IMG/VR virus record: IMGVR_UViG_3300037851_000671
Location: 128,001 to 192,000 of that record
DNA: 64,000 nt
Reading direction: 5' to 3' (one strand)
Source of the DNA: a virus
Lineage: Duplodnaviria > Caudoviricetes
Shown here piece after piece: positions 36,474 through 58,594 of the stretch (the stretch's first letter is position 1; each line of letters opens with the position of its first letter). The translations under genes and the position numbers were made by a program. Under the pieces are notes generated by a model. It worked only from the letters and a program-made list of their open reading frames with translations, was not told where the DNA came from and did not search any database.

Positions 36474-37226
36474 TCAACCAAGCAGCTTCTTTATCCAGTT
36501 CTTGGTGTCATCTATACTTGATACTCTGACGTTATCAAGCCCAATTTCAACAGAAGCATAATCGCACCCTCCTTCAAATAATGAATCACCAACATAGACA
36601 ATATCATCTTTTGATATGCGAAGCTGCTGCATCAGCTCGTCAATACCGAACTTCCGGCCACAGGAACGCGGCGTGAAATCGATGGAGGTCAGGCCAGCTA
36701 CCTTTACCTCAAAGGTTGGCAATTCCTGCGCAAGGCGAGGCAACACAGCAAGGCGCTTCTTGGCTTCGGGATCCCACTTGGCCTTCTCTTCCAGCGGGGC
36801 CTTCTGTCCAAGTGCGGAGAAGGTTACCTGTGTTTCGCGGTCTTCTACCTGCTTACCCCAAAGCTTCTCTGGAGTGAGTTCGGGAACCGCTTTCAACACT
36901 GACTCAATAACACGGTGAGCTTTTTCTATCTCCGTCTTTGTTGGGTTGGAATGATATTTAGCTATCCAACCATATTTGGACCAAGTTTGATACAGGGCGC
37001 CACCAGATGACGCAAGTATGTAAAGGTTATTCAATAGCTTCGTATCTTCGGTACCTATACTTCCAAGGAACTGTTTCTGGATTGTCTTCCAAGAAAGGCC
37101 AGATATAACCGCAACGTTATATTTACCTGTCTCAAGTATTTTCCTTAGCAGTGATGCCATCTCCTTATCGAGGGGCTGCTTGGACTCAGTAAGCGTACCA
37201 TTCAAATCAAATACGATTGTTTTCAT
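36474..37226 (-). CDS. HAD-IIB phosphomannomutase-like protein
   Basis: FDLNGTL, VISG, EDRETQVTFSALGQ, SIDF, YVGDSLFEGGCDY. Confidence 0.85.
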   Translation of the reverse strand: MKTIVFDLNGTLTESKQPLDKEMASLLRKILETGKYNVAVISGLSWKTIQKQFLGSIGTEDTKLLNNLYILASSGGALYQTWSKYGWIAKYHSNPTKTEIEKAHRVIESVLKAVPELTPEKLWGKQVEDRETQVTFSALGQKAPLEEKAKWDPEAKKRLAVLPRLAQELPTFEVKVAGLTSIDFTPRSCGRKFGIDELMQQLRISKDDIVYVGDSLFEGGCDYASVEIGLDNVRVSSIDDTKNWIKKLLG

Positions 37227-37355
37227 ACTTTGTGCATTTAATTGTGCATGATGTTATTGTTGTTTGAACGGCCTGTTATCTATCAGGCAGATCAATATCA
37301 TATGCGTGCCGGGTAGGTTTCTCGACCGGAAAGTTTCTAGCAAGGCCTTAAAAGC

Positions 37356-37391
37356 AAAAGGCCCGTCCGACCGAAGTCGAGACGAGCCTTT
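37356..37391 (-). terminator. Terminator closing the ncRNA/tRNA cluster
   Basis: AAAGGCTCGTCTCGAC-TTCG-GTCGGACGGGCCTTTT on minus strand. Confidence 0.85.
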
Positions 37392-37413
37392 GTTGGTAGC
37401 GTGTGTAGTAAAT

Positions 37414-37484
37414 GACAGCGAAAAAAAAGATCCGACCTTTTATTTGGTTTTGAATTCGAGATGAAAGATCGGTTGCGCGCTGTC
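37414..37484 (-). ncRNA. Structured RNA E1 (shared terminal motif, no T-arm)
   Basis: GACAGCG/CGCTGTC stem, CGCAA opposite AUC-U8, inner CCGATCTTT/AAAGGTCGG. Confidence 0.65.
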
Positions 37485-37487
37485 TAG

Positions 37488-37560
37488 TCGGGCGGGAGGG
37501 ATTCGAACCCCCAACTATTCGCTTATGAGGCGACTTTTCTAACCGTTGAAATACCACCCG
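37488..37560 (-). tRNA. tRNA-Met or tRNA-Ile2 (anticodon CAU)
   Basis: CGGGTGG/CCGCCCG acceptor, CT-CAT-AA loop, GGGGG-TTCGAAT-CCCTC; lacks initiator features. Confidence 0.88.
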
Positions 37561-37564
37561 AAAC

Positions 37565-37681
37565 GGCAACGAAATTATGTAGACAATAGGCCGGCTTTTT
37601 ACACCGTTTCCAAAGCCTCCGATGGATTCGAACCACCTAGCGCCAATTGATGATAGATGAAATGTCTACGAGCGCGTTGCC
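37565..37681 (-). ncRNA. Y RNA-like element E2
   Basis: GGCAACG/CGTTGCC and GTAGACA/TGTCTAC stems enclosing a T-arm GGTGG-TTCGAAT-CCATC. Confidence 0.75.
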
Positions 37682-37691
37682 AGAAATTAAA

Positions 37692-37826
37692 GAGTAACGA
37701 AAATTGCAGGACCACTGTTTTTTGTGCTACAATTACAACACATCCAGCCTTTCGACCGGAGCTGGGATTCGAACCCAGACCTCTTAATTCTCAATTTAGG
37801 ATGAATGATCCCACTGCGCGTTACTC
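37692..37826 (-). ncRNA. YrlA-like Y RNA E3 (circularly permuted tRNA mimic)
   Basis: GAGTAACG/CGTTACTC stem; then T-arm CTGGG-TTCGAAT-CCCAG, closed acceptor-like hairpin TCCGG/CTGGA, D-arm-like GTGTT-GTAATTGT-AGCAC. Confidence 0.8.
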
Positions 37827-37879
37827 GGTGCTTCGTTCTATGTTTCCACAGAATGAAACGAGAGCGTAAAGTAAACCGA

Positions 37880-37885
37880 GAATAT
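37880..37885 (-). promoter_or_regulatory. ATATTC candidate promoter for the ncRNA cluster
   Basis: ATATTCTCGG upstream of E3; divergent twin at 37942. Confidence 0.45.
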
Positions 37886-37941
37886 TGATAGATTCTCGAT
37901 TGGGGTTTCTGCACGATGCCTGCTTTTTTGGAGGCAAACGC

Positions 37942-37947
37942 ATATTC
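37942..37947 (+). promoter_or_regulatory. ATATTC candidate promoter for the + strand island
   Basis: ATATTCTCGG upstream of ORFs 37994 and 38160. Confidence 0.45.
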
Positions 37948-37993
37948 TCGGATTGTCTTTGAGACAGTTGAAAGGTGTTAGAGGGTGAGAGCT

Positions 37994-38185
37994 ATGTTTC
38001 AGCAATGTACAGCAGTTTCAGATTGTTCTTCTGAAAAAGAGTTAGCCGATTTAGATTCCCACATTCAACAGCTTAACTTTCGCCTCAGACGTGTTTTGAA
38101 GAATGTCAAGACAGTCAGAGAATCTTGCAAAACCACTGCCCAAGTTATTGGTGAGATAAATGGCCACTTCGAAAACCACAAATGA
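37994..38185 (+). CDS. Small coiled-coil hypothetical protein
   Basis: ATG 37994 after GAGGG. Confidence 0.55.
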   Translation: MFQQCTAVSDCSSEKELADLDSHIQQLNFRLRRVLKNVKTVRESCKTTAQVIGEINGHFENHK

Positions 38186-38894
38186 TCTTTTCTTAGAGAG
38201 ACTTGCAGAGGGCTTGGATTCAACATCAAAGCTTACTCATGCTTTATTGTCTGAGATCAGAGATTCTGAAGCGGATTTTGCCTCCATCAAAACCGAGCTG
38301 TCAATACTAAGAGAGAACGTTAAAGGACTGTCAGAGATTGTCAGGGAAGGTAATGGAGCCACATCTATTCTCACACGTATTGCGCTTATTGAGGCGCGAA
38401 TACAGAACATTGAGAAGTGGATGGAAACCCACATCGATCTTCATCAGGAGGAAAACGCTGACGTGAGCAAGGCTCAGGAACAGCTGAAAGACCTCGATAA
38501 GAAGATCGCCGCGTTAACTTCAGTTGTCAATGAACTAAAATCTCACGCCGATGATATTGAGAAGAAGAGGCGCGAGAGTATAGACCGCGAGCTAGAGCTT
38601 CAGCACGAGGACAAGAAGAGCAAGATAGGGGTAGCTGCCGAAAGACAGCAGACCATTATCAAAGTCCTTGGTGCCCTGTTGTTGGCCGTGCTTGGCGCTG
38701 CTGGTGGCTATTTAGCGAATTCTTGTCATGGGACCGCCGGAGCGGCGCAGCCAAGGAGCGTTATTGTTGCCCCCTCGGCTGCCCCTATCCTAGCTCAACC
38801 GGCCGAGCCGATCAAGGAGAATCTGACTCCTCAACCGCCGTCACAGCCGCTTCTTCAGCCTTCGGTTTCTGCTGTTGCAAAACGAACTCGTTGA
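38160..38894 (+). CDS. Coiled-coil protein with C-terminal transmembrane helix and Pro-rich tail
   Basis: IIKVLGALLLAVLGAAGGYL hydrophobic segment. Confidence 0.75.
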   Translation: MATSKTTNDLFLERLAEGLDSTSKLTHALLSEIRDSEADFASIKTELSILRENVKGLSEIVREGNGATSILTRIALIEARIQNIEKWMETHIDLHQEENADVSKAQEQLKDLDKKIAALTSVVNELKSHADDIEKKRRESIDRELELQHEDKKSKIGVAAERQQTIIKVLGALLLAVLGAAGGYLANSCHGTAGAAQPRSVIVAPSAAPILAQPAEPIKENLTPQPPSQPLLQPSVSAVAKRTR

Positions 38895-40458
38895 GATCAA
38901 AATCCCTGATCGCCTTGACAATGTTGATACCAACATACTCAAGGTTCTTGAACAGTGCCGGTGTCATAGTCTGATACACGGTGACACTACGATCACCGAA
39001 ATCAGCGCTGTGCCACTGGTAGTTGCTGGCATTGATAACCCAAAGCTCTGCCTCTGGGTTGACCTTCTTGCGATACTCAGCCCAAGCCCTTGTCAAAGGA
39101 GTGCCAGCGTTCTGCTGCTCATCAGTGATCAAAACCATCAAATCAAGCTTACGCTTGCTGTTGGTTGCGTTCTCGATTGCCAGAGAAACCGTAGTTCCAC
39201 CGGCAACCCTGAGAGCCAACAGATTCTTAACCTGATTCTTGCGATTCAGGCCAGTGATCCTTGGGCACATACCGCTAGCGTAGCCGTAACGACCTCCGTG
39301 ACCCTCCTCATACAAGGCGTTATCAAAAGTTGTGAACCAAAGGTTTGTAGCCTTTAGGAATGGCACTGCCAACAGACCAGCAGTCTGAAGAGGCTCCCCG
39401 TTCATAGAACCAGAGATATCAACAGACACACCAACTCTCTTACCTTCAATGGTAGGCATTGGTACGTCCAATGTTGCAACCATTGCATCGATAAGAATGT
39501 CCTTGACCTTTTCGTGCTTGGCGAAAATGTATGGCTTTGCAAAGTCAAGCGGAAGAGAGCGGCCATTCTGAACCTCTCCCATCTTTAGCTTGAGCGCGGT
39601 CAGTCCATCCGTGGTGTCGAAGACATTGCGCTCTTCGAGAGAACGGATGTTGAGCAACAGAGCTGTCAAACCCATCTGAGTCATCGAGGCCATTGCAAGA
39701 GGACCCTTGAGTCCCGCAAAACCCTTAACAACATCCCATGGGATTTCATTTTCCAGCATCATATCAGCGATCTTCTTTGGATCACTGAGCTTCTTCATCA
39801 TCTCAACAGCAACCTGCTTGGAACCGGTTGCCTCGGCCTTACGACCGTCCAAGACATACAGAATGACGTTTGCACGACCGTCTGTATAACGTGGGTGAAC
39901 CAAACGAACGAGCTGATTCAAAGCAGTTGGATACTTGAGCGTGAAGTTTTCAAGCTTCTTATATCCCCACTTCTCCATTGCCGCGCGCACCCACTTCTGA
40001 GCACGCGAACCAAAACCACGACCCAACTGCTTGCTCTTGCACAGCTCCACGAACTGGATCAATTGACCAGGGTGGAATGTGCTAAGCAATGCAATAGCTG
40101 CCTGCTTATTTACAGGAGAATCCAAGAACTGCTCGTTTGCAGATCCGGCAATGGCAGCAAGAGCTACCTTAACCATACCTTTCATATGGCTATTGCGGGC
40201 AAAGCAAGCCGCCTTGAGCAGGTACTCAGGGTCCAGCTTCGCGCGGTCAATGAGCAACGGCAGAGCTTCTTTTGCCGCGTCATCAACAGAGCGATAAAAC
40301 TGGTTCTTAAGAATACCAGTCAAAAGAACACGAGCAACCGAATCTTCAGGAAGCTCATTCTTGGACAGATATTCCGTCTTGGTCACAACCTTCTCAGGCT
40401 GACCCAACAGAGCCTTAACAAAAGAAGTGGACTTAACCTTGTTTGTTGTCTTATTCAT
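38812..40458 (-). CDS. TROVE + vWA protein (Ro60/Rsr orthologue)
   Basis: NQFY...DPEYLLKAACFAR HEAT-like TROVE region; MIDAS VDISGSM and LITDEQ. Confidence 0.88.
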   Translation of the reverse strand: MNKTTNKVKSTSFVKALLGQPEKVVTKTEYLSKNELPEDSVARVLLTGILKNQFYRSVDDAAKEALPLLIDRAKLDPEYLLKAACFARNSHMKGMVKVALAAIAGSANEQFLDSPVNKQAAIALLSTFHPGQLIQFVELCKSKQLGRGFGSRAQKWVRAAMEKWGYKKLENFTLKYPTALNQLVRLVHPRYTDGRANVILYVLDGRKAEATGSKQVAVEMMKKLSDPKKIADMMLENEIPWDVVKGFAGLKGPLAMASMTQMGLTALLLNIRSLEERNVFDTTDGLTALKLKMGEVQNGRSLPLDFAKPYIFAKHEKVKDILIDAMVATLDVPMPTIEGKRVGVSVDISGSMNGEPLQTAGLLAVPFLKATNLWFTTFDNALYEEGHGGRYGYASGMCPRITGLNRKNQVKNLLALRVAGGTTVSLAIENATNSKRKLDLMVLITDEQQNAGTPLTRAWAEYRKKVNPEAELWVINASNYQWHSADFGDRSVTVYQTMTPALFKNLEYVGINIVKAIRDFDLNEFVLQQQKPKAEEAAVTAVEESDSP

Positions 40459-40478
40459 GGTGAATTTCTCCTATAAAC

Positions 40479-40637
40479 GCGCCCTGATAAACAGAGCGAA
40501 ATGAGCCGTTTGCAATCGCCCAACGGCGACGGATTGCTCGCAAACTCTGAAATGGTCACAGCCACTGGAATCAAACCAGTGTCGGTAAACCCTAGCCATT
40601 AACAATAGGTAAATCTATTGTTAAATCAGGCACTGTG
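40479..40637 (-). ncRNA. Structured TROVE leader containing a CCA-ending tRNA-like element (40553-40637)
   Basis: CACAG../..GGCTGTG-ACCA, T-arm ACTGG-TTTGATT-CCAGT, 10-bp hairpin TTAACAATAG/CTATTGTTAA; ends GTGCCTGAT/ATCAGGGCGC can pair. Confidence 0.7.
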
Positions 40638-56013: not shown

Positions 56014-57021
56014 TTACTTCTTCGAGTTGCCTTGATTTGTGATTGCTTGCTGAACTGCATCGAGGGCCGTCTTTCCAGACTGAGCCTGCATCGATACCAC
56101 AGCAATCTCACGAACCTCTTCTTGTAATCTCTTCACATTTGCTCGGAGATCTGTGTTCTCTGCTTCCTTTGCGATCAATGCACGCTTCAGTGACTCCAGC
56201 TCACTTTGGGCAAGCTTGAGTTCCGATTCGCTTTGCATCTTGGCAAACTTCAACTCGTTATCATGTGACGACTTCATGTTAGCCGTCACTATCTTGAGAA
56301 CCTTATCAGCCTCAGCCTTTACGGTTGCGTCAAAGGAATCCAGTTTGGCCTTCCCTTCAGCAACAATTGCTTCGGCTTTCTTGAGCGCCTCTTCACGAAT
56401 CTGCCACGTCTTCTCCAAATCCTCTTCGGTCTGCTTACGCTCGCGATCTCTCTGAGCCACCTTCTGACGATAGGCTTCCTCATCATTCCTGCGAGCAACC
56501 TGCTTCTGGAAAACATAGTCATCATCTTCCCGCTGACGGGTTTTGAGGACTAGATCATTGCGCTCACGAACTGCCGTGAGATGATCCTGCTCTTCCTTCT
56601 GCCAGGCTTTGCGAGCTTCTTCCTGGGCTACAGCAAAAGCAGCTTTCTTTTCCTCGTACTCACGCACAAGGTCAGCCACTGCCTGGGCCGCAATCTCTTT
56701 TCCATGAAGCTCTTCTAGCTCAGTGGTCTTGAGATCAATGGCGTCTTTCAACGTCTGAAGCTCAGCTATCTTTGCTTCGAAGATCTCTCTGACACTGTTG
56801 ATTGATCTGGAGATGTCAAGATTCAATCGGGTGAGACCTGTTGCAACCTTCTCAACCGTCAACTCTGTTGCATCTTGTTCGATCTTTGCATCCCGTGCCG
56901 CTTTCAACGCTTTCGCATTGGCATCGGACTTGTCTTGGCCAGCCGCTGCTACTGCTGCGGTCACTTCGCCAATGTTGGATGGGGTTTTTGAACTCGTTGT
57001 TGTCTTCTTTTTTGCTACCAT
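56014..57021 (-). CDS. Long coiled-coil protein
   Basis: 335 aa, E/K/A/R-rich heptads. Confidence 0.8.
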   Translation of the reverse strand: MVAKKKTTTSSKTPSNIGEVTAAVAAAGQDKSDANAKALKAARDAKIEQDATELTVEKVATGLTRLNLDISRSINSVREIFEAKIAELQTLKDAIDLKTTELEELHGKEIAAQAVADLVREYEEKKAAFAVAQEEARKAWQKEEQDHLTAVRERNDLVLKTRQREDDDYVFQKQVARRNDEEAYRQKVAQRDRERKQTEEDLEKTWQIREEALKKAEAIVAEGKAKLDSFDATVKAEADKVLKIVTANMKSSHDNELKFAKMQSESELKLAQSELESLKRALIAKEAENTDLRANVKRLQEEVREIAVVSMQAQSGKTALDAVQQAITNQGNSKK

Positions 57022-58445: not shown

Positions 58446-58517
58446 AGTCGAGAGCCCGAATCGAACGGGCGATCTTCTAGTTTGCAGCTAGAGGCCTTAC
58501 CACTTGGCTACCTCGAC
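58446..58517 (-). tRNA. tRNA-Cys(GCA)
   Basis: TCTAG-CTGCAAA-CTAGA, GCCCG-TTCGATT-CGGGC, U73. Confidence 0.93.
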
Positions 58518-58519
58518 GT

Positions 58520-58594
58520 TGGAGCGGATAGCGGGGCTCGAACCCGCAACATTCTCGTTGGCAACGAGGCATTCTACCATTGAATTACATCCGC
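58520..58594 (-). tRNA. tRNA-Gly(GCC)
   Basis: GCGGATG/TATCCGC-TCCA, TT-GCC-AA loop. Confidence 0.95.

What the first reader, a model, noticed from the sequence alone, without database searches (positions are those of the whole stretch)
37692..37826. E3 is a circularly permuted tRNA mimic
Seen: the order is AGGT variable-like segment, perfect T-arm, acceptor-like hairpin closed by a TCGAAAGG loop, D-arm-like GTGTT/AGCAC, then return to the terminal stem. There is no anticodon loop and no free CCA. Established: this is the YrlA architecture. tRNA scanners would miss it or call it a pseudo-tRNA.
Basis: partly seen in the sequence, partly recalled or inferred. Interest (0 to 1): 0.7.

Follow-up and report, generated by a model that had tools for sequence, protein, structure and literature searches.

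The report
Giant-phage Y RNA with tRNA-like core
This 135-base stretch most likely encodes a small RNA built like a tRNA opened at the anticodon end and sealed at the acceptor end. It lies 1 kb behind a giant phage's Ro60 gene, so it is a divergent relative of the known bacterial Y RNA "YrlA", not a new kind of molecule.

Summary
On the minus strand, 37826..37692 folds (z = -4.4) into an 8-bp terminal stem, an internal loop and a 10-bp inner stem. These enclose a canonical T arm, a 7-bp acceptor-like hairpin capped by GAAA, and a D-like hairpin. There is no anticodon loop and no CCA.

A Ro60/Rsr protein, confirmed by fold, is encoded 985 nt upstream on the same strand.

E3 is one of 12 RNAs in this phage that share one closing "frame". 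Two sister copies score against Rfam YrlA as well as control actinophage YrlAs do. The frame recurs downstream of Ro60 in at least 13 related phage contigs, always on the Ro60 strand.

Models built without E3 find it: E = 3e-9 for a full-length relative and E = 9e-14 for the core alone.

E3 fails strict YrlA membership:
- no RF02553 hit;
- no GNCGAA motif at the 5' end;
- non-consensus T and D stems;
- UG in place of the D-loop GG.

Its core belongs to a subtype also found beside Ro60 in other phages and in bacteria. RF02553 misses that subtype every time.

Verdict: a new variant of a known kind. Expression and Ro60 binding are untested. This scan has reported similar phage Y-like RNAs beside Ro60-like genes on other DNA.

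The parts
37819..37826 (-). 5' strand of the 8-bp terminal stem (GAGUAACG). It ends in the family-wide ACG.
   Evidence: MFE fold. Helix 1 of alignment A6 has compensatory changes in all 7 modelled pairs.
37815..37818 (-). 5' side of the conserved internal loop (CGCA; family consensus CGY). Presumed part of the Ro60 docking site.
   Evidence: CGC is invariant or nearly so in the 14 minimal family members and in all 12 copies in this genome.
37805..37814 (-). 5' strand of the inner stem (contains GAUC).
   Evidence: Helix 2 of A6: all 8 pairs show changes on both sides.
37800..37805 (-). Conserved UUCAUC motif directly after the inner stem.
   Evidence: Invariant in alignment A3 and present in all genome copies.
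37779..37799 (-). Variable-arm-like single-stranded segment ending in AGGU.
   Evidence: The AAGAGG(G)GU segment before the T stem is shared with L096 and L098.
37762..37778 (-). T arm: 5-bp stem CUGGG/CCCAG with the canonical loop UUCGAAU.
   Evidence: (match to the tmRNA T arm). All 5 pairs are kept.
37743..37760 (-). Acceptor-stem-like hairpin: 7 bp closed by a GAAA tetraloop, with no free ends.
   Evidence: In relatives the stem sequence differs completely but still pairs.
37723..37742 (-). D-arm homologue: stem of 4-7 bp depending on register (GUGU/GCAC core). The loop carries UG where relatives have GG.
   Evidence: It differs from the D arm of L098 by one base.
37706..37715 (-). 3' strand of the inner stem (contains GGUC).
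37700..37705 (-). 3' side of the conserved internal loop (AAUUUU; family consensus A/U-rich, then UUUU).
37692..37699 (-). 3' strand of the terminal stem (CGUUACUC).
38812..40458 (-). Ro60/Rsr orthologue (548 aa), the presumed protein partner. Its stop codon lies 985 nt upstream of E3.
   Evidence: Pfam vWA_Ro60 at 5e-7. NCBIfam Rsr at 2.5e-8, collinear over residues 42-488. AF2 model with pLDDT 81. The top 13 PDB fold hits are all Ro60/Rsr; 2nvo scores E = 1.5e-15, TM 0.69/0.76.
37565..37681 (-). E2: sister RNA with the same frame, a T arm and a capped hairpin but no D arm. It starts 10 nt after E3.
   Evidence: R1 38.6 bits. R2 28.3 bits. Orthologue at L088:7612-7724.
37488..37560 (-). tRNA-Met (CAU), packed between E2 and E1 with spacers of about 3-4 nt.
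37414..37484 (-). E1: minimal sister RNA (frame plus an A-rich loop).
   Evidence: R1 59 bits.

Best explanation
E3 is a gene for a phage Y RNA of the YrlA architecture. It is transcribed from the minus strand as the first element of the unit E3-E2-tRNA-Met-E1, about 1 kb downstream of the phage's Ro60 gene.

The two-part closing stem, its conserved internal loop (CGY opposite A/U-rich UUUU) and the adjacent UUCAUC motif make up a family-wide frame. The frame most likely docks the RNA on the phage Ro60 ring (inferred). It holds a tRNA-like module in the position of the anticodon stem. The module has a canonical T arm, a 7-bp acceptor stem sealed by GAAA, and a D arm.

By analogy with Rsr-YrlA, Rsr-Yrn1-PNPase and phiLo Ro60-Yrl-PNPase, the module would do one of two things (inferred):
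- present a tRNA-shaped surface that recruits a tRNA-binding host or phage factor to Ro60; or
- gate and stabilise the particle.

RNA ends are probably made by the tRNA-processing machinery, because family members abut tRNA genes within 0-5 nt (inferred).

The E3 core belongs to a distinct subtype of such modules. E3 is a slightly eroded copy: one of the two elbow guanines in the D loop is replaced (GG to UG) and the outer D-stem pair is lost.
For: Shown here:
1. The fold and its elements (z = -4.39).
2. A Ro60 orthologue 985 nt upstream on the same strand.
3. The same frame occurs 12 times on this strand of the genome. Two copies carry canonical D arms (GCUC...GGUAGAGC) and hit Rfam YrlA RF02553 at 42.5 and 37.8 bits. 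Control Gordonia-phage YrlAs score 44.1 and 42.2 bits.
4. Model R1, built from minimal members, finds 43 frame copies. All lie on the Ro60 strand. In the related phage contigs (Ro60 51-73% identical) they lie downstream of Ro60. None occurs in loci with only distant Ro60.
5. Model R2 was built from one full member of another phage. It finds E3 full-length at 47.9 bits, E = 2.7e-9, and also finds YrlA-like RNAs beside distant Ro60 genes.
6. In the 53-row alignment, 95.8% of cells pair, against 64% when shuffled and about 42% when the partner is slid. All 6 helices carry compensatory changes.
7. Model R3 was built from 8 cores of the E3 subtype, E3 excluded. It finds E3 at 58.8 bits, E = 9e-14, the second best hit in 348 kb. 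All T and acceptor pairs are kept.
8. Subtype relatives lie next to Ro60-like genes in viral contigs L096 and L098 and in bacterial contigs L166, L177 and L180.

From the literature:
- YrlA has this layout and binds Rsr (PMC4201824; 10.1101/312249).
- Phage Ro60 binds phage Y-like RNAs and PNPase (PMC12135203).
Against: - There is no evidence of transcription, of RNA ends, or of Ro60 binding.
- E3 gives no RF02553 hit, even at E <= 10 on 801 nt or at E <= 1 genome-wide.
- The literal GNCGAAN0-1G motif is not at the 5' end. Its only match, GUCGAAAG, is the acceptor-hairpin loop, and that match is not conserved in relatives.
- The D loop has UG where all 8 modelled subtype relatives have GG. The D/T elbow that defines the L shape may therefore be weakened.
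- The D-stem register is ambiguous: three alternatives are possible.
- No E3-type core was found in the sampled loci of close relatives.
- Nine of the 12 frame copies lie 44-53 kb from Ro60, so their linkage to Ro60 is indirect.
- A-series alignments made by cmalign are biased toward the model structure.
Confidence: 0.78

Rival explanations
1. E3 is a decaying paralogue: a former YrlA-type Y RNA whose tRNA-like elbow is no longer functional. It may persist only as a frame that still occupies Ro60, as the minimal copies would, or it may have no function at all.
For: - The D loop has UG instead of the GG found in all 8 modelled subtype relatives, and the outer D-stem pair is U.C.
- No orthologue with this core appears in loci of close relatives.
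- The genome has 11 other copies, two of them with intact canonical modules, so there is redundancy.
Against: - The frame, T arm and 7-bp acceptor hairpin are all perfectly paired.
- The fold is much more stable than shuffles (z = -4.39).
- L098 shares the same outer D-stem change and an otherwise near-identical D arm, so that change is not private decay.
- One guanine that could pair with C56 remains.
Confidence: 0.14
2. E3 is a tRNA-derived processing or punctuation element, or a rearranged tRNA pseudogene of the phage tRNA arrays. RNase P or other tRNA enzymes would recognise it to cut polycistronic transcripts, with no role for Ro60.
For: - Family members abut tRNA genes with 0-5 nt spacers, and most copies sit in the tRNA cluster at genome 209.8-218.8 kb.
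- A 7-bp acceptor stem is the main RNase P determinant (PMC4201824).
Against: - The frame is conserved with covariation even in copies that carry no tRNA-like part at all. A tRNA remnant does not explain that.
- In related phage contigs the frame follows the Ro60 gene on the same strand.
- RNAs of the same architecture sit beside very distant Ro60 genes in bacteria and phages.
Confidence: 0.06
3. The region is protein-coding (ORFs 37687-37914 minus strand or 37657-37869 plus strand), or the fold is a chance resemblance.
For: Two ORFs of 70-75 codons overlap E3.
Against: - Neither ORF has a Pfam match.
- Relatives keep the base pairs, not the reading frames: acceptor stems differ completely yet still pair.
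- E-values are 1e-9 to 1e-13 from models that exclude E3.
Confidence: 0.02

Closest known systems
YrlA (Y RNA-like A; Rfam RF02553) of S. Typhimurium, M. smegmatis and mycobacteriophages (Chen et al. 2014, PMC4201824; Wang et al. 2018, 10.1101/312249)
   Same: - The same module order: closing stem in place of the anticodon arm, variable segment, T arm, closed acceptor stem, D arm.
- Encoded within 4 kb of Ro60/Rsr on the same strand.
- Occurs in arrays with shorter Y RNAs and next to tRNA genes.
- Has a 7-bp acceptor stem, like M. smegmatis YrlA.
   Different: - No RF02553 match.
- The 5' motif is ACG-CGC(A), not GNCGAAN0-1G.
- A conserved UUCAUC motif is present.
- T stem is CUGGG/CCCAG and D stem GUGU/GCAC, instead of the near-invariant GCGGG and GCUC/GAGC.
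- The D loop has a single G.
- The RNA lies downstream rather than upstream of Ro60.
- It is one of 12 frame-sharing copies in one genome.
Yrl1 and Yrl2 of Thermus phage phiLo, with phiRo60 (PMC12135203)
   Same: Phage-encoded Y-like RNAs next to a phage Ro60. They have a stem, bulge, stem architecture. Binding to phage Ro60 and to host PNPase has been shown for them.
   Different: Per that paper they lie upstream of Ro60 and were picked by a CGAA motif. That paper does not mention YrlA, and I did not compare their sequences here.
Yrn1 of Deinococcus radiodurans (the RYPER complex with Rsr and PNPase)
   Same: A Ro60-bound RNA with a T-arm-like hairpin that tethers Ro60 to an effector.
   Different: Yrn1 has the opposite orientation of T and D elements and no clear D arm. 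Both strands of the animal-type Ro-binding helix are retained (PMC4201824).
Circularly permuted tRNA genes of red algae and one archaeon (cited in 10.1101/312249)
   Same: The primary transcript has a closed acceptor end and its termini at the anticodon stem.
   Different: Those genes are processed into real tRNAs with anticodon loops. E3 has no anticodon loop, and a 31-nt-per-side closing frame instead.
Phage Y-like RNAs beside Ro60-like genes reported earlier in this scan (for example e1-272486, e1-213476, e1-2848230; other genomes)
   Same: A family with a conserved handle inside tRNA clusters, next to a Ro60-like gene. Some copies carry a permuted tRNA-like core.
   Different: They are on different phages (Felix O1 type). 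I did not compare their handle with this frame.

Membership tests
YrlA (Rfam RF02553) | Significant match to the RF02553 covariance model (gathering score 69 bits) | tested here: not met
   No hit at E <= 10 on window 37200-38000, and none at E <= 1 genome-wide. Controls score 37.8-59.7 bits: actinophage YrlAs, two sister copies in this genome and bacterial rsr loci. None of these reaches the gathering score either.
YrlA (Chen et al. 2014 criteria) | Encoded within 4 kb of a Ro60/Rsr orthologue, on the same strand | tested here: met
   The E3 5' end is at 37826 and the Ro60 stop at 38812, both on the minus strand. Ro60 identity rests.
YrlA (Chen et al. 2014 criteria) | Module order: 5' stem, V, T arm, closed acceptor stem-loop, D arm, 3' stem | tested here: met
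   MFE fold. Full-length alignment to R2 and to R3.
YrlA (Chen et al. 2014 criteria) | GNCGAAN0-1G motif near the 5' end (presumed Rsr contact) | tested here: not met
   The 5' end reads GAGUAACGCGCAG. Only the stem-closing CG is shared. The literal match GUCGAAAG lies in the acceptor-hairpin loop and is not conserved in relatives.
YrlA (Chen et al. 2014 criteria) | Near-invariant T stem-loop | tested here: inconclusive
   The loop UUCGAAU is canonical, and the three inner stem pairs match the RF02553 consensus. The outer pairs differ: CUGGG/CCCAG against GCGGG/CCCGC.
YrlA (Chen 2014; Wang 2018) | Near-invariant D stem-loop (GCUC...GAGC) with two guanines that form the elbow with the T loop | tested here: not met
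   The E3 stem is GUGU/GCAC (or a shifted register) and its loop is UGUAAUUGUA, with one G.
YrlA | Bound by Rsr/Ro60; carries Psi55 and dihydrouridine; some members are cut by RNase P | not testable with these tools
   No RNA data were found for this uncultured freshwater phage.
Frame family of this phage clade (model R1; unnamed) | 7-8 bp terminal stem ending ACG/CGU, CGY loop, inner stem, UUCAUC, and a 3' A/U-rich UUUU loop | tested here: met
   All elements are present in E3. R1 itself does not report E3, because the model has no room for the 90-nt core. R2, which carries the frame plus a core, aligns E3 end to end.
E3-type tRNA-like core (model R3; unnamed subtype beside Ro60 in phages and bacteria) | T arm, capped acceptor hairpin, UG linker and a D arm of the type UGUGGUGUARYGG..AGCAC | tested here: met
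   58.8 bits, E = 9e-14, model positions 1-60 of 60, from a model built without E3. The one departure is YGG to UUG in the D loop.
tRNA (RF00005; ARAGORN) | Cloverleaf with an anticodon arm and free acceptor ends | tested here: not met
   No call by ARAGORN or RF00005. No anticodon loop and no CCA.

The most novel reading that the evidence does not exclude
E3 may represent a second, conserved class of tRNA-like Y-RNA modules. Its T stem is YYGGG, its acceptor stem is capped by a tetraloop, and its D arm is of the type UGUGGUGUARYGG-AGCAC, like the D arm of a different tRNA class from the one canonical YrlA imitates.

This class sits in arrays with canonical YrlA beside Ro60 in actinobacteria, in an Alcaligenaceae-labelled MAG and in several unrelated large phages. 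The Rfam YrlA model does not see it.

If different modules recruit different tRNA-binding effectors, this giant phage would use its 12 frame-sharing RNAs as an interchangeable adaptor set for one Ro60 ring.
Probability: 0.3. Interest if true: 0.65.

Novelty: new variant of a known kind. Interest (0 to 1): 0.45.

Why it matters
Y RNAs that imitate tRNA are known, but the partner of the tRNA-like part is still unknown (PMC4201824; 10.1101/312249).

This phage clade offers a natural series on one conserved frame. The series runs from bare frames, through partial cores such as E2 and E3, to full canonical cores. E3 points to a second core subtype that recurs beside Ro60 from actinobacteria to giant phages and that the current Rfam model misses.

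That gives concrete constructs for two questions: which part binds Ro60, and which part recruits an effector. It also shows that annotation pipelines undercount Y RNAs in phage tRNA clusters.

For E3 alone the result is modest. It is a divergent, possibly slightly eroded member of a known type.

Tried and rejected
- **Rfam on E3.** Gathering threshold and E <= 10 give only a T-arm fragment match to tmRNA.
- **blastn of 37300-40500 against GenBank phages.** No match.
- **DNA and frame-pattern searches of G001.** This is the 209-kb relative that holds L001. Nothing was found, and its Ro60-downstream spacer lacks the array.
- **Expression.** No RNA holder is listed among the sequencing runs. Only freshwater metagenome DNA runs hold the stretch.
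- **RtcB (PF01139).** Not found in this record, which is only 51% complete.
- **Sigma-70 promoter and terminator scan.** Uninformative. The only terminator-like call on the E3 strand is the E3 acceptor hairpin itself.
- **R1 with filters off.** It misaligns E3 by pairing the frame to GGUC...UUCG at the T arm. A model of minimal members cannot span a 90-nt core.
- **MAFFT alignment A4.** It misplaced the E3 acceptor hairpin against D arms and was not used.
- **Pattern scan of bacterial genomes.** Most of the 80 listed loci (of 104 matching stretches) are tandem tRNA genes (T arm of one, D arm of the next), the false positive that Chen et al. warn of. Only loci with a Ro60-like ORF or an R2 hit were kept.
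- **Weak RF02553 hits at window 58464-58579 and elsewhere.** These are the same tandem-tRNA artefact.
- **GUCGAAAG in the acceptor loop.** I considered it as a displaced Ro60 motif. I rejected it because relatives have other loops: UUCG, CUCG, or GAAA with other flanks.
- **Supplementary covariance models of Chen et al.** Not held, so they could not be run.

Full report
**Observation.** Read on the minus strand, window 37826..37692 is a 135-nt sequence whose ends form a perfect 8-bp stem (GAGUAACG with CGUUACUC). RNAfold gives -45.1 kcal/mol against -30.6 +/- 3.3 for 200 dinucleotide shuffles (z = -4.39; none as stable).

The fold has these parts:
- a terminal stem;
- an asymmetric internal loop (CGCA opposite AAUUUU);
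- a 10-bp inner stem;
- a multiloop holding three hairpins.

The three hairpins are:
- a T arm, CUGGG / UUCGAAU / CCCAG, at RNA positions 49-65;
- a 7-bp hairpin closed by GAAA, at 67-84;

AGGU precedes the T stem. There is no anticodon loop and no CCA. ARAGORN and the Rfam tRNA model do not call it.

**Context.** The 548-aa ORF at 38812-40458, on the same strand and ending 985 nt upstream of E3, is a Ro60/Rsr orthologue. The evidence:
- Pfam vWA_Ro60, E = 5e-7;
- NCBIfam Rsr, E = 2.5e-8, collinear over residues 42-488;
- full-length tblastn matches of 22-25% identity to actinophage "Ro-like RNA binding protein" genes;
- an AlphaFold model (pLDDT 81) whose 13 best PDB matches are all Ro60/Rsr structures. 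D. radiodurans Rsr 2nvo scores E = 1.5e-15 with TM 0.69/0.76. The Thermus phage phiLo Ro60 is among the 13.

The window is part of a 218.8-kb viral record from a freshwater metagenome, estimated 51% complete. E3 is followed after 10 nt by a second framed RNA (E2), then tRNA-Met (CAU), then a minimal framed RNA (E1), with spacers of about 3-4 nt.

**A family with a common frame.** Twelve elements on the minus strand of this genome share one frame. The frame is a 7-8 bp stem ending in ACG, then CGY, an inner stem (often GAUC paired with GGUC), UUCAUC, a variable cargo, the inner-stem return, an A/U-rich UUUU stretch, and CGU plus the stem return.

Three copies are E3, E2 and E1. Nine lie in the tRNA cluster at genome 209.8-218.8 kb, often directly abutting tRNA genes.

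The cargo ranges from about 20 nt of A-rich loop to complete tRNA-like modules. Two copies, at genome 209852-209976 and 211243-211394, carry canonical D arms (GCUC, a loop with GG, GAGC). They hit Rfam YrlA (RF02553) at 42.5 and 37.8 bits. YrlAs immediately upstream of the Ro genes of Gordonia phages Neville and Cashline score the same, 44.1 and 42.2 bits. I used those as positive controls, which also showed that Rfam holds the family.

**Comparative evidence.** The Ro60 protein has 93 homologues at 42-73% identity in metagenomes, several on contigs of 230-460 kb. I fetched 89 Ro60 loci.

A model of 14 minimal family members (R1; 10 of its 14 pairs show compensatory changes) finds 43 copies. 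All are on the Ro60 strand. In at least 13 contigs of the close clade they lie downstream of Ro60. No copy occurs in loci with only distant Ro60.

A model made from a single full-length member of another phage (R2, from L027:1773-1909) gives two results:
- it finds E3 end to end at 47.9 bits, E = 2.7e-9, the same score as the RF02553-positive sister copy;
- it finds YrlA-like RNAs next to Ro60 genes only 23-29% identical to ours, including the two Gordonia-phage controls.

The distant YrlA-like RNAs have a recognisably related frame (GAGG-CGYUAG ... UUACUUC ... UUUUCCUC).

In the resulting 53-row alignment, 95.8% of cells pair. The figure is 64% after shuffling and about 42% when partners are slid. 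All six helices carry double changes. That alignment is fitted to the model, which inflates such numbers somewhat. In it E3 forms every pair of the terminal, inner, T, acceptor and D helices. It lacks only the short three-pair helix that closes the multiloop in some members.

**The E3 core is a distinct subtype.** E3 itself never hits RF02553. Pattern searches found its closest relatives elsewhere. Viral contigs L096/L092, L097, L098 and L099 carry cores with four shared features:
- the same or a similar T arm;
- a tetraloop-capped acceptor hairpin whose stem sequence differs completely but still pairs;
- a UG linker;
- a D arm of the type UGUG(G/U)UGUARYGG..AGCAC.

The D arm of L098 differs from that of E3 by one base. 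These cores sit on four different closing frames. One frame has the literal GNCGAAG motif (L097) and one has the Rfam-type AUGC loop (L098).

The same core lies directly upstream of Ro60-like ORFs in a Streptosporangium plasmid, two Nonomuraea genomes and an Alcaligenaceae MAG, each time inside an array with canonical YrlAs. In six arrays where RF02553 scored neighbouring elements, it never scored the E3-type element.

A model of eight such cores that excludes E3 (R3) finds E3 at 58.8 bits, E = 9e-14. That is the second best hit in 348 kb and far above the canonical cores, which score 22-48 bits. Its alignment shows only two departures in E3: the outer D-stem pair is U.C (also so in L098), and the D-loop GG is UG.

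**Interpretation.** The published YrlA layout is exactly this one, described as a circularly permuted tRNA with a closed acceptor stem (PMC4201824; 10.1101/312249). Phage Y RNAs are also known, from mycobacteriophages, CcrColossus, Bacillus phage G and phiLo (PMC4201824; PMC12135203).

E3 is therefore best read as a Y RNA of the YrlA architecture that serves the phage's own Ro60. Three steps are inferred and not shown:
- the frame binds Ro60;
- the tRNA-like module recruits a tRNA-binding factor or protects the RNA;
- tRNA-processing enzymes make the RNA ends.

Because its acceptor stem has 7 bp, as in M. smegmatis YrlA, cleavage by RNase P in the GAAA loop is plausible. Cleavage would not argue against the reading.

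Strict membership in YrlA fails on four tested features: the RF02553 score, the 5' motif, the D arm and (in part) the T stem. I therefore class E3 as a variant.

The single guanine in the D loop, and the absence of an E3-type core in the sampled loci of close relatives, leave room for E3 being an eroding copy (about 14%).

A pure tRNA-remnant or punctuation role is unlikely, because the frame is conserved with covariation even where no tRNA-like part exists.

Coding potential is not supported.

**Novelty.** No paper in the held library describes multi-copy Y-RNA families in giant-phage tRNA clusters or the E3-type core. I could not check whether the 355 candidates of Chen et al. include it, because their supplement is not held. 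Earlier reports of this scan describe comparable Y-like RNA families beside Ro60-like genes in other phages. I did not test those.

Noticed in passing
G000:C1:209852-218766 (outside the window; locus L005): Nine more RNAs with the same frame are interleaved with 15 tRNA genes, often with 0-5 nt spacers. Cargo lengths run from about 20 to about 130 nt. Two copies (209852-209976 and 211243-211394) have canonical YrlA-type cores and hit RF02553 at 42.5 and 37.8 bits.
   Followed up: partly
window 37565-37681 (-), and L088:7612-7724: E2 has a T arm and a capped hairpin but no D arm. It has a clear orthologue downstream of Ro60 in a 336-kb viral contig (Ro60 69% identical). E2 is therefore conserved where E3 is not.
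   Followed up: partly
L166:4935-5066, L177:2208-2337, L180:1396-1523, L098:6766-6895, L096:2698-2833: Arrays of 2-4 YrlA-like RNAs beside Ro60 in bacteria and phages each contain one element with the E3-type D arm. RF02553 does not score that element, although it scores the neighbours. This looks like a blind spot in the Rfam family.
   Followed up: partly
window 56704-56771: The first stage called this 'E7', a minimal copy of the frame. It lacks the CGY...UUCAUC motif on either strand, and model R1 does not report it at E <= 1.
   Followed up: partly
window 58464-58579 (-): A weak RF02553 hit (23.9 bits) spans the junction of the tandem tRNA-Gly and tRNA-Cys genes. This is the dimeric-tRNA false positive described by Chen et al., not a Y RNA.
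   Followed up: yes
window 38160-38894 (+), and L001:7562-8212 (-): A coiled-coil-like ORF of about 220-245 aa lies on the opposite strand between Ro60 and the RNA array, overlapping the Ro60 3' end. An ORF of similar size occupies the same position in a relative. Its function is unknown.
   Followed up: no
L115 and L159 (Planctomycetota MAG contigs): Very dense arrays of 30 or more tRNA-like genes, including several tRNA-Sec-model hits, run into 2-4 YrlA hits and a Ro60-like ORF. This could be a prophage or an unusual tRNA island.
   Followed up: no
window 37743-37760 (-): The acceptor-hairpin loop region reads GUCGAAAG, a literal match to the YrlA Rsr motif GNCGAAN0-1G. It is not conserved in relatives, so it is probably just a GNRA tetraloop with its closing pair.
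   Followed up: yes
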